Part shown: positions 30,237-33,665 of the stretch, piece by piece
Layout: each line of letters opens with the position of its first letter
Numbering within the stretch: the stretch's first letter is position 1
Assembly: GCA_964016885.1 (NCBI GenBank)
Contig: CAXHJY010000796.1
Location: forward strand, 8,130 to 72,129
From: Eledone cirrhosa
Lineage: Eukaryota
Direction of reading: 5' to 3'
Length of the DNA: 64,000 nt
Notes under the pieces: model-generated
Databases searched by the model: none
What the model was told of the DNA's origin: nothing
Seen by the model: the letters and a program-made list of their open reading frames with translations, nothing else
Made by a program: the position numbers and the translations under genes

Positions 30237-30637
30237 ACCAAATAAATCTATATATTTTTTAAAAAATAATACTCCAGTTGCATTTTCGATTTCATCTCTT
30301 TTTCTTTATACTTTCACTCGTGTAGGACACCTCGGTTATTTTTCATTTTGTAAAAAAAACCTCACTTTCTAATATATATATATATATATATATATATATA
30401 TATATATATATATATATATATATATATATATATATATATACCTCACTTTCTAATATATATATATATATATACCTCACTTTCTAATATATATATATATATA
30501 TACCTCACTTTCTAATATATATATATATATATATATATATATATATATATATATATATATATATATATATATATATATATATATATATATATATATATAT
30601 ATATATATATATATATATATAAGTCTCTAGCTGTGTC

Positions 30638-30726
30638 ATTCTCGATAAAAGCACTGGATATGTAGTCCTGAAGATTTCTAACAAGAATGAAACGCGTAGA
30701 TTACTTCCCTTGCTTTTATCGAGAAT
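30638..30726 (+). ncRNA. Type I hammerhead ribozyme, copy 1 (predicted cleavage 30698/30699)
   Basis: gtagtc CTGAAGA t-ttct-aaca-agaa-t GAAAC gc GTA gattac; helix I extended by perfect 16-bp attctcgataaaagca/tgcttttatcgagaat. Confidence 0.9.
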
Positions 30727-30947
30727 CTAATTGTAATACGTGACGTATTCTATTCTATAGCGATTAGGTCTTCAAAATGTTTATTATAAACATACAGAAT
30801 ATTTTCGAATATTCTATGTCTATATTCACATATATATCGCTATTTCAGAGCATTTATTCCAATTTCTAATTTCTGCCGGACCGGCAACCGCTCTTTCAAA
30901 CCAGTTCCTGTACACAGCTAAGTATTCTATAAGTCTCTAGCTGTGTC

Positions 30948-31036
30948 ATTCTCGATAAAAGCACTGGATATGTAGTCCTGAAGATTTCTAACAAGAATGA
31001 AACGCGTAGATTACTTCCCTTGCTTTTATCGAGAAT
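30948..31036 (+). ncRNA. Type I hammerhead ribozyme, copy 2 (predicted cleavage 31008/31009)
   Basis: Same sequence as copy 1, 310 bp downstream. Confidence 0.9.
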
Positions 31037-33665
31037 CTAATTGTAATACGTGACGTATTCTATTCTATAGCGATTAGGTCTTCAAAATGTTTATTATAAA
31101 CATACAGAATATTTTCGAATATTCTATGTCTATATTCACATATATATCGCTATTTCAGAGCATTTATTCCAATTTATATATATATATATATATATATACA
31201 TATATATGGAGTGGGGACCGTGTGTGTGTAAGTGTGTGCTTGTGTACATGTGTGTGTGTGTACATGTGTGTGTGTGTGTGTGTGTTTGTGTGTGTGTGCA
31301 CGAAAAGAAATATTTATCAATCGTAATAATGACTATTTTCTATAGGTTAATTTGTAGCGTGTTAATTTTCAATTGTTGACAATATACAAGGTGAATATTG
31401 AACTTCAATCAAATCAATGGATTATAAATATATTCTTTTTCTCTTTATTTACGAAGGACGGAGGTGCTTTAGCTGAGAAGTGAGAAATCGATATTGAATA
31501 TATATTCATAATGGGATAAACAACTAAAATGATTAACCATAGTGTACAATTTCGAGATAAACTTTGCTCTCTTCTCTCAGGCTTACTCTTTCTCTTCCCT
31601 TCTATCTCTCTCTCTCTCTCTCTCTTTCTCTCTCTTCACCTTTCTCTCTCTCTCTCTCTGTCTCTCTCTCTTTCTCTTCACCTTTCTCTAGCTTCCACCC
31701 TCTCCCTCGCTCTCGCTCTCGCTCTCTCAACCTTAAAATATATACACATATATGTATATAATTATGTATGAATGTGTATAAGTATGATTATATATACATA
31801 TATGCATGTAAATATTTATTAAGATATATATATGAATATATTTATATATATACATATATATATATATATATATATATATATATATATATATATATATATA
31901 TATATATATATATATATATATATATTATTTCAGGTATCACATCGAAGCTGAAGCTGCAATAGAGCAACACCAGTCGAATTATTTGAGGTGGTCTCTAAAT
32001 ACTCAATGATGCGAGAAATGTATTAATTCTTTCATCAGAGTGAGCACATTAAGTTATACGGGGAAAAACTATGAATAATATATAGACCACCTATGCTGCC
32101 ACAGCATATATCAACAACAAAGATGGCGAATACCATAAGAGAAGAGAAATTCCACTAAGAAGTTATTGGTAAACTCGAACACGATTGCGCAAGGTGTGCC
32201 GCAGTGGGGTTGAACAGAGAACTAAGTGGTTGCAAAACGAACTCCTTAACAACATACCAGTTCTTCTTCTTCTTCTTCTTCTTCTTCTTCTTCTTCTTCT
32301 TCTTCTTCTTCTTCTTCTTCTTCTTCTTCTTCTTCTTCTTCTTCTTCTTCTTCTTCTTTGCCACATATTCCTGGGAGGGTCATTCTTCTTCTTCTACGAC
32401 TATATATAAAAAAATGTAAAATTAGTCTCTTACTGAAAATTTGTCTTAAATCATCAGTGATGTTTTGAGCATTGGGTATGGGACTACAACGTTGTCTGCC
32501 GAGCTGTTTGGGCTGCAATTAAGGTGTAGATTAAATCGATTGATCAGTCACGAAGTGTCAATTAGTCTATTGTTATTTAAGTGAGATTTACGACTAACTA
32601 AATACATCTCTGCTTTAGCTATAGCAAAGAGACCCCCAGAGAAAAACACTGCCATAAACAATATTGACTTACTAGTAAGCTTAATTTAATTTTAATTGTT
32701 CTAACTTCCATCACTTGCCATGTTTAGCCTTAGACAAATGCCATTGGTTTTAGCAGTCGAGATATATACATATTTACATACACATAGACGCACAAATATA
32801 TACATACATATATATATACACACACACACAATCACACACATATATATATGTATGTATATTTGTGTATGTGTGTATATATTAACACATGCATTGAGAGTAT
32901 CTAACTGGCAATAAAAATATAATATGTAACAGCTGAGTTTCACTTCGGGTTTTATGATTAGTCAGGTAGGAAACTAACCCTTTCCTACACACACATACGC
33001 ATAACACTCTCTCAGACATACATACATACATACATACATACATACATACATACATACATACATACATACATACATACATACATACATACATACATACGCA
33101 TACGTATCCCACTTGCTAATTATAGATGGCCAAAGAGACAATATAAAAAGAATAAACTGAAGTATCTGGTACAAAAGGAGACAGATAGGGCCTACATTTT
33201 CAATGAGAAGGTCACAGCAGTTGTGTTGTAAGATCTTTCACAATTAAATAACCATCATGCTGTTAAATCGACCAATGAAGGGACTAGTTACCGAAATAAT
33301 TAAATAAACTGAAGTAAATCTCATTCGGGGAGTGAGTTGGCAGTATGACCCTCCCAAGCTATAACAATATATGTTTCAACACACGATATCACATCAACAA
33401 CTTTGCAAAATAAATTAAAAACGAATTGTATATATATATATATATATATATATATATATATATATATATATATATATATATATATATATATATATATATA
33501 TATATATATATATATAAATGAAAAGTATAGAAATTATTGTAGCAAGAAGCCAACAGTATTCCATAATATATAATATATATATATATATATACATGTTGTG
33601 TTAGTTAATTCCGAAAAAAAAGCAAAGGAAAAAAGAGTGCTCTATGTATAGAACAGAGCTATTTA

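What the first reader, a model, noticed from the sequence alone, without database searches (positions are those of the whole stretch)
30619..31175. Young retrozyme-like element: two identical hammerhead ribozymes 310 nt apart, inserted in (TA)n
Seen: 247 bp duplicated at 310-bp period with no difference I can find. Each copy has a complete type I hammerhead: helix I gtagtc/gattac plus a further perfect 16-bp stem, CTGAAGA, 4-bp helix II, GAAAC-gc-GTA. Helix III is reduced to the palindrome ACGCGT. Established: minimal type I HHRs with palindromic helix III occur in Penelope-like pseudo-LTRs and in metazoan non-LTR retrozymes, where tandem copies cleave as dimers and release monomers that circularise. 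Inference: this is a recently inserted, non-coding, self-processing retroelement; I do not know of this family being characterised in cephalopods.
Basis: partly seen in the sequence, partly recalled or inferred. Interest (0 to 1): 0.92.

Follow-up and report, generated by a model that had tools for sequence, protein, structure and literature searches.

The report
Two-armed, edited hammerhead retrozyme family
This is one copy of a very young, protein-free 310-base repeat with a predicted self-cutting RNA motif; its insertions elsewhere in the genome are mirror-image arrays with fixed ends and likely RNA-editing marks, which suggests that a Penelope-type jumping-gene enzyme copied one small RNA, probably a circle, round and round into DNA.

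Summary
Observation confirmed: 30618-31175 is 1.8 identical 310-bp units, each with an intact type I hammerhead core (predicted cut after 30698 and 31008), between (TA)n runs. It is no assembly artefact: about 9,300 exact motif copies and 997 identical element-(TA)n junctions occur genome-wide. Most insertions are two head-to-head arrays. In all 75 complete ones of 86 scored, one arm ends near unit base 209 and the other near 244: the Penelope-like-element (PLE) 'tail'. Arms reach 28 units and ignore the cut site. Variants are all-or-none within an insertion (156 fixed, 16 mosaic), and fixed changes are strand-biased A>G in stems, as ADAR editing would leave. Best reading: a non-LTR retrozyme whose monomer RNA, probably circular, is reverse-transcribed from both ends of a PLE cut. 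Cleavage, circles and the helper PLE are not shown; a few loci fit a multimeric template. The window copy is a one-armed fragment. Near-identical sequence lies in runs of 18 coded organisms; contamination or close kin is likelier than horizontal spread, but this is untested. The class is published; this scan has reported this same family many times at other loci.

The parts
30618..31175 (+). Retrozyme insertion: one arm of 1.8 identical 310-bp units, 5' end at about unit base 309, 3' end at unit base 246 ('long' end)
30638..30726 (+). Hammerhead domain 1 with its perfect 16-bp basal stem (30638-30653 / 30711-30726)
   Evidence: stem kept with different letters in related families
30662..30704 (+). 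Type I hammerhead 1: helix I, CUGAAGA, U-U plus 4-bp helix II, GAAA, palindromic ACGCGU helix III; predicted cut after A30698
   Evidence: sequence; weak Rfam HH9 alignment on copy 2
30699..31008 (+). Predicted 310-nt monomer released by two cuts; candidate circular RNA
   Evidence: inference from the cut sites; fold z = -5.2
30948..31036 (+). Hammerhead domain 2 with basal stem; predicted cut after A31008
   Evidence: identical to copy 1
31106..31125 (+). 8-bp hairpin just upstream of the short end (first copy at 30796-30815); pairing kept through changed letters in three related loci; candidate recognition site for the reverse transcriptase
   Evidence: (L099, L070, L115; the L196 row was mis-chosen and is not used); role inferred
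31139..31173 (+). 35-nt 'tail' between the family's two fixed 3' ends (unit bases 209 and 244)
30517..30619 (.). (TA)n target run, left
31176..31206 (.). (TA)n target run, right
30158..30516 (+). Older, separate element: terminal repeat (30158-30375) of a PLE family, 92-97% like the ends of the L099 element, with a degenerate U3-A8 hammerhead; its last 15 bases recur four times in the TA run (30359, 30440, 30471, 30502). It supplied the TA target and is not homologous to the retrozyme

Best explanation
This is a truncated, one-armed copy of a very young, non-coding 310-base repeat family whose insertions are mirror-image arrays in (TA)n with two fixed ends, likely made by a Penelope-like element's reverse transcriptase copying one predicted self-cut RNA unit, probably a circle, many times from both sides of a DNA break. 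Steps: (1) an array is transcribed on the hammerhead strand (inferred from strand-biased A>G changes); (2) paired hammerheads cut it to 310-nt monomers, which are ligated (predicted; shown for other retrozymes); (3) ADAR edits some adenosines in the long stem and helix I (inferred); (4) a PLE GIY-YIG endonuclease cuts both strands in (TA)n and each DNA end primes reverse transcription inside the RNA, one at about base 209 and one at about base 244 (ends shown; enzyme inferred from the PAc precedent); (5) both enzymes run through the ligated cut site for 1 to 28 or more rounds, stop at random and the two cDNAs are joined head to head with 0-6 bases of overlap or a few added bases (structure shown; rolling copy inferred); (6) daughters become donors, giving many small clonal sub-lineages (shown).
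For: Ends: 75 of 75 complete two-armed insertions have one long and one short end (21 of 21 in the set chosen by the ribozyme motif alone, p about 5e-7; 54 of 54 in the set chosen by a long end); 29 of 29 more in the first 38 loci (read). Two internal start sites bounding a 30-40 bp tail, both strands cut and extended, AT-rich targets are described for the PLE PAc (PMC11167929); inverted 5'-truncated arm, one-sided tail and (TA)n bias for PLEs generally (10.1101/2021.04.23.441226). Intact RT + GIY-YIG ORFs exist in this genome. Read-through: 137 of 152 arms exceed one unit; 4 of 152 5' ends lie at bases 75-85 against 5.4 expected; 758 crossings of the cut site show no indel scars beyond the lineage-wide 1-base insertions. 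Single-unit template: 36 haplotypes in 86 insertions, yet 156 variant-insertion pairs are fixed in every unit against 16 mosaic; the two arms agree in 59 of 62 informative insertions; singletons are not homogenised. In three small lineages listed in full, every multi-unit locus is uniform and the longest arm (8, 19 and 13 units) has no longer donor in the assembly. RNA intermediate: 15 of 27 fixed non-lineage substitutions are A>G against 9 of 92 singletons (p 2e-6), A>G 15 against T>C 1, all 12 in stems are A>G with no C>T (p 0.008), recurring at bases 45, 99 and 28 on 4, 3 and 3 backgrounds. Ribozyme constraint: the 9 variable sites within bases 43-85 all miss the 16 core and helix III bases (p 0.008, post hoc), while singletons hit them at the neutral rate (6 against 5.8).
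Against: No RNA was seen: cleavage, ligation and expression are untested. None of 4 variants tested genome-wide is private to one locus (6 loci, 9 loci, 5 loci, and 355 matches), so uniform daughters could be copied from uniform linear multimers; the circle is needed only to found and to lengthen lineages. In L188 both arms switch haplotype after exactly two units, and in L125 a variant sits at the same unit on both arms: these fit a multimeric template. In PAc, ribozyme mutants insert normally and uncut RNA is the main substrate in vitro (PMC11167929). The U-U at the base of helix II lacks the conserved G10.1-C11.1 pair (PMC4209133), and 8 of 9 predicted frog retrozyme dimers did not cut (10.64898/2026.07.22.740005). 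A>G also keeps pairing as G-U, so selection may add to the bias. No helper PLE with a homologous end was found among 50 GIY-YIG loci examined of 150 listed.
Confidence: 0.7

Rival explanations
1. Same PLE machinery and same two start sites, but the template is an uncut or partly cut linear (or multimeric circular) read-through transcript of a donor array; the hammerhead is not needed for insertion.
For: L188, L125 and the period-7 repeats in L147; no tested variant is private; PAc uses uncut RNA in vitro (PMC11167929); salamanders hold multimeric RNAs (PMC7229834).
Against: A new change arises in one unit and would be passed on as a mosaic, but 156 of 172 shared variants are fixed; edit-like A>G is all-or-none, with one mosaic case (L163) and no singleton at bases 28, 45 or 99; 5' truncation would shorten arrays each generation, yet lineages' longest arms have no longer donor in the assembly.
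Confidence: 0.21
2. A DNA-level satellite: units amplified by unequal exchange or extrachromosomal DNA circles and then homogenised in place.
For: Tandem form; a few periodic variants (L052, L175, L154) show local duplication after insertion; proposed for retrozymes in 10.64898/2026.07.22.740005.
Against: Does not give two fixed ends paired long with short, inverted arms sharing one haplotype, or a strand-specific A>G excess; singletons stay unhomogenised.
Confidence: 0.04
3. These are terminal-repeat remnants of an autonomous PLE that were cut short before reaching its ORF.
For: The ends are PLE-like, and short PLE ends with hammerheads are common in these loci.
Against: Arms of up to 28 units run unit into unit with no ORF; no PLE coding sequence adjoins the 5' end of any of 14 one-armed or cut-off copies inspected; the unit has no ORF.
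Confidence: 0.04
4. Assembly duplication of a single-copy sequence.
For: The two copies are identical and the window lies on a small contig.
Against: 813 + 8,483 exact motif matches and 997 junctions with reversed-pattern controls of 0; a 340-base contig (310 + 30) in two of four public runs indicates a closed 310-base repeat.
Confidence: 0.01

Closest known systems
Metazoan non-LTR retrozymes (coral, mussel, axolotl; Cervera and de la Pena 2020, PMC7229834; parts 2-4 of 6 and passages read)
   Same: Non-coding, AT-rich tandem units of 150-450 bp, one type I hammerhead per unit, palindromic helix III; axolotl HHR_Amex2 also has a U-U at the base of helix II and cuts better as a dimer. The paper proposes circRNA templates, tandem cDNA and PLEs as the likely helper.
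   Different: Cleavage and circles were shown there, not here. The word 'inverted' does not occur in its main text: two-armed insertions, tail asymmetry, all-or-none haplotypes and edit-like A>G in genomic copies are not described in what I read. Its supplement was not read. It calls the sequences species-specific, which the run search here may contradict.
Vertebrate retrozymes as non-autonomous PLE derivatives (Li, Clavereau, Pollet 2026, bioRxiv 10.64898/2026.07.22.740005; parts 1-3 of 5 read, covering methods, results, discussion)
   Same: Same conclusion that PLEs mobilise retrozymes.
   Different: Their support is co-occurrence and pLTR homology in frogs, no mollusc was sampled, and they suggest local satellite-like amplification; here support is from insertion structure, and no homologous pLTR was found.
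Penelope/Poseidon element PAc of Anolis (Frangieh et al. 2024, PMC11167929; parts 1-2 of 4 read)
   Same: Two internal reverse-transcription start sites bounding the tail; both strands cut and extended; AT-rich target.
   Different: PAc is autonomous and protein-coding; its ribozyme is protein-assisted and dispensable for insertion in vitro; no multi-round copying of a small RNA was tested in the parts read.
EN+ PLE insertions in general, Neptune and Naiad clades (Craig et al. 2021, 10.1101/2021.04.23.441226; passages read)
   Same: Inverted 5'-truncated arm, 30-40 bp tail on one end only, (TA)n bias hiding target duplications.
   Different: Those carry an RT-GIY-YIG ORF; Naiads lack hammerheads.

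Membership tests
Type I hammerhead ribozyme | Conserved core CUGANGA / GAAA / UH with helices I-III, helix I open | tested here: met
   helix III is one pair plus a palindromic loop as monomer, 6 bp as dimer
Type I hammerhead ribozyme | Reaches an Rfam hammerhead family threshold | tested here: not met
   HH9 16.5 bits against 52; Hammerhead_1 not listed
Type I hammerhead ribozyme | G10.1-C11.1 pair at the base of helix II (usual, not universal) | tested here: not met
   U-U in the window; A-U in the 56T>A allele; U-U is tolerated in axolotl HHR_Amex2
Type I hammerhead ribozyme | Self-cleavage | not testable with these tools
   needs in vitro transcription
Non-LTR retrozyme | Short tandem units, each with a type I hammerhead | tested here: met
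Non-LTR retrozyme | Non-coding | tested here: met
   longest ATG-started frame 30 codons
Non-LTR retrozyme | Dispersed multi-copy family | tested here: met
Non-LTR retrozyme | Expressed as linear and circular monomer RNA | not testable with these tools
   no RNA run was listed, which is no evidence either way
Non-autonomous PLE-dependent element | PLE insertion signature (inverted arm, one-sided 30-40 bp tail, microsatellite target) | tested here: met
Non-autonomous PLE-dependent element | Terminal homology to an identified autonomous PLE | tested here: inconclusive
   none in 50 of 150 listed GIY-YIG loci, from 10,596 candidates
Autonomous PLE | RT plus GIY-YIG ORF | tested here: not met
   (no tblastn match of four PLE proteins in the window)

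The most novel reading that the evidence does not exclude
The arrays are a genomic record of rolling-circle reverse transcription of single, ADAR-edited, viroid-sized circular RNAs by a PLE enzyme pair, and the element has recently crossed species boundaries: essentially the same 310-base unit, with the same common alleles, lies in public runs of 18 differently coded organisms from 17 studies, although retrozyme sequences are described as species-specific. It would then behave as a transmissible viroid-like RNA that writes itself into animal germlines.
Probability: 0.1. Interest if true: 0.93.

Novelty: new member of a known kind. Interest (0 to 1): 0.62.

Why it matters
Retrozyme circles have been proposed since 2020 as templates for PLE reverse transcriptases, but the step has not been shown in the papers I read. 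This family is young and abundant enough to read the step from DNA: fixed paired start sites tie it to PLE chemistry, all-or-none haplotypes point to a single-unit template, and edit-like A>G changes fixed in whole arrays point to an RNA intermediate on the ribozyme strand. It names a 310-nt substrate, two start sites and a candidate recognition hairpin for a direct in vitro test of circle-templated target-primed reverse transcription. If the copies in other organisms are real, it would also be a case of recent horizontal spread of a non-coding ribozyme element.

Tried and rejected
Rfam: no hammerhead at a useful score; miRNA hits are microsatellite noise. Helper search: GIY-YIG family search gave 150 scored places of 10,596 candidates; 30 short and 20 long loci were examined; matches to the unit in L070, L099, L115 and L108 proved to be separate insertions of related repeats or short ends beside PLEs, not the PLEs' own termini. 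The PLE family whose end flanks the window copy has copies about 2% apart or more and no homology to the unit, so it is not shown to be the helper. A 146-base DNA search returned nothing because common words are skipped: uninformative. Private-variant test: 0 of 4 private. Priming by long microhomology was considered: the short end lies beside an ATATATAT run, but many ends fall before it and the long end has 2-3 bases at most, so it is not required. No RNA holder listed. Motif scans: 0 in viral contigs, metagenome contigs, prokaryote genomes. Scan look-ups by sequence and for relatives found no look-alike window in other genomes; a word search on horizontal transfer found nothing. A relatedness control for the coded organisms could not be obtained, so their distance from this host is unknown. 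Two runs of another sample of organism D hold next to none of the words, which the tool says is no proof of absence. Literature searches: hammerhead + retrozyme + octopus, 3 papers, 2 listed; octopus + hammerhead ribozyme, 5 papers, 4 listed; neither listing shows a description of a cephalopod retrozyme; also (listings only, except the five papers read). Luense et al. 2017 on PLE hammerhead dimers is recalled, not read. Rows dropped: arms under 70 bases; two diverged relatives in L196 and one stub in L177; L055 in the first set; the mis-chosen L196 row.

Full report
Observation. The window holds 1.8 identical copies of a 310-bp unit at 30618-31175 between (TA)n runs. Each has a type I hammerhead: helix I 6 bp with one G-U, CUGAAGA, a U-U followed by a 4-bp helix II, GAAA, the palindrome ACGCGU and A17, on a perfect 16-bp stem. 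My descriptor finds 3 hits in the window against 0.005 per shuffle in 200 shuffles. Rfam scores it far below threshold (HH9 16.5 bits, gathering 52). Two copies of the domain co-fold best as a double hammerhead with a 6-bp intermolecular helix III (-68.7 against -62.6 kcal/mol for two monomers), the arrangement described for metazoan hammerheads (PMC4209133, passages). The unit has no ORF over 30 codons from ATG. Unit numbering below starts at window 30620.

Family size and age. A DNA search gave 227 matches in 39 of 169 candidate regions scored. Exact motif counts are 813 for the window's allele and 8,483 for the N7 = U alleles, reversed controls 0; 997 places carry one exact element-(TA)n junction. 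Singleton changes are 112 in 238,663 bases, so the burst is very recent.

Insertion anatomy. First set, 38 loci from the top hits (biased to identity): 30 two-armed, 7 one-armed, 1 unscored; in all 29 with both outer ends visible one arm ends at bases 243-251 (long) and the other at 206-218 (short; bases 211-218 are ATATATAT and merge with the target) (read). Second set, 85 loci on contig C1 (25 from the first places listed for the ribozyme motifs, 60 taken in list order from the first 100 of the 997 junctions), 86 insertions: 75 complete two-armed, all long + short; 2 two-armed with one end beyond the fetched edge; 9 scored one-armed, of which 3 have the 5' side unseen and 1 has a 20-base inverted stub. 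The 21 of 21 in the motif-chosen set is the unbiased test (p about 5e-7). Arms meet head to head, mostly within -6 to +8 bases. The 35-base difference is the PLE tail: PAc starts reverse transcription at two internal sites that bound a 30-40 bp tail, cuts and extends both strands and prefers AT-rich DNA (PMC11167929, parts 1-2 of 4); inverted 5'-truncated arms, a tail on one end only and (TA)n bias are general PLE traits (10.1101/2021.04.23.441226, passages). The genome has long RT + GIY-YIG ORFs. The window copy is a one-armed long-end fragment in the TA run at the end of an older, unrelated PLE terminal repeat (30158-30375).

What was the template? Cut linear monomers copied once are excluded: 137 of 152 arms exceed one unit (longest 27, and 28 or more in L175), 5' ends avoid nothing and favour nothing at the cut site (4 of 152 at bases 75-85, 5.4 expected), and 758 crossings carry no indel scars apart from lineage-wide insertions at base 82. 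Between monomer circle and linear multimer: 36 haplotypes occur in 86 insertions, but within an insertion 156 shared variants are in every unit and 16 are mosaic, and the arms agree in 59 of 62. Against over-reading: none of four variants searched genome-wide is private (6 loci, 9 loci, 5 loci, 355 matches), so uniform donors exist. But in the three lineages listed in full each multi-unit locus is uniform and the longest arm (8, 19, 13 units) has no longer donor in this assembly; a single unit must have been multiplied at some step. L188 (both arms switch haplotype after two units), L125, L163 and the period-7 pattern in L147 fit multimeric templates, template switches or later duplication. 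A nicked monomer held closed by its stems would look like a circle.

RNA intermediate. Among fixed substitutions outside the 12 lineage markers, 15 of 27 are A>G on the ribozyme strand, against 9 of 92 singletons (Fisher p 2e-6); T>C is 1; all 12 events in stems are A>G and none C>T, which would keep pairing equally (p 0.008); bases 45, 99 and 28 change on 4, 3 and 3 backgrounds. This is the pattern ADAR editing of a double-stranded RNA would leave once reverse-transcribed (established chemistry; the lead came from scan note e1-8803865 on another family). The marker set and backgrounds are my choice, and selection for pairing may contribute.

Constraint. Nine variable sites in bases 43-85 all miss the 16 core and helix III bases (p 0.008, post hoc). 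Related families about 69-82% alike (L070, L099, L115, L196) keep the basal stem, helices and a palindromic helix III with other letters, two of them with a U3-A8 core pair, and keep an 8-bp hairpin just before the short end through paired changes; they end at the equivalent long site. Read by eye from four-sequence alignments; no formal covariation statistic.

Other organisms. Twenty runs from 18 coded organisms and 17 studies hold 0.72-0.97 of 29 sampled words. Four of the 20 were laid: each has one contig of 280-340 bases with 1-2 differences, depth 5-128; two are 340 bases, a closed 310-base loop. The alleles (53T; 53T+56A; 53T+64G) are among the commonest here, with nothing private. Low depth, no private alleles, and no look-alike in other scanned genomes favour carry-over of this or a closely related species' DNA, diet, or close kin; horizontal spread is not excluded because relatedness could not be measured.

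Known and new. The class and the proposed cycle are published (PMC7229834, parts 2-4 of 6; 10.64898/2026.07.22.740005, parts 1-3 of 5). My searches found no description of a cephalopod retrozyme or of the two-armed footprint for retrozymes, but supplements were not read and subscription papers are missing. This scan has reported the same 310-base family with the same reading at several other loci, and other families in this and other genomes; those notes are not independent evidence. Verdict: a new member of a known kind whose insertions make a proposed mechanism directly testable. PLE mobilisation about 0.9; monomer, probably circular, template about 0.7; cleavage, circles and helper unshown.

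Noticed in passing
window 22140-22210, minus strand: A third hammerhead-like motif of an unrelated family (long helix II, palindromic-type helix III), with relatives in L057, L064, L065.
   Followed up: no
window 29873-30092 and 28455-28776: High-copy short interspersed repeat, 74-97% like copies in dozens of fetched loci; a 161-bp tandem pair of it at 28455-28776. 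Its identity as a tRNA-derived octopus SINE is recalled, not tested.
   Followed up: partly
window 33670-33821: Long imperfect inverted repeat around a 59-base core, MITE-like; the Rfam microRNA hit on it is below threshold.
   Followed up: no
window 30359-30516: The last 15 bases of the neighbouring PLE terminal repeat recur four times, spaced by TA runs: repeated abortive starts or slippage.
   Followed up: no
L148 2899-3170: A 272-base GC-rich foreign sequence lies between the two arms of a retrozyme insertion: probably a captured RNA or DNA at the joint.
   Followed up: no
L163 309-4319: The 45A>G change is in all 7 units of the short arm but only in the last-made 2 of 6 units of the long arm, as if the template was edited or swapped during copying.
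   Followed up: partly
L188 2301-8693: Both arms carry one haplotype in their outer two units and another inside.
   Followed up: partly
L070 2440-2864, L099 290-705, L115 8960-9115, L196 5160-5800: Related, older retrozyme families sharing the start-site region; L099 and L196 have a U3-A8 core pair; L070 is a small two-armed insertion at the end of a PLE.
   Followed up: partly
L099 4809-8474; L101 1991-5062: Long RT + GIY-YIG frames (938 and over 1,000 codons) with a cysteine-rich linker recalled as Neptune-type; at least a dozen distinct hammerhead families lie in the fetched loci.
   Followed up: partly
G000:C1:183180591-183192130: A 38-unit two-armed array (17 + 21 units of 311 bases), uniform for the 197A>G allele.
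   Followed up: no
G000:C2 (L120-L123): Several nuclear copies of mitochondrial COX1, one nearly full length.
   Followed up: no
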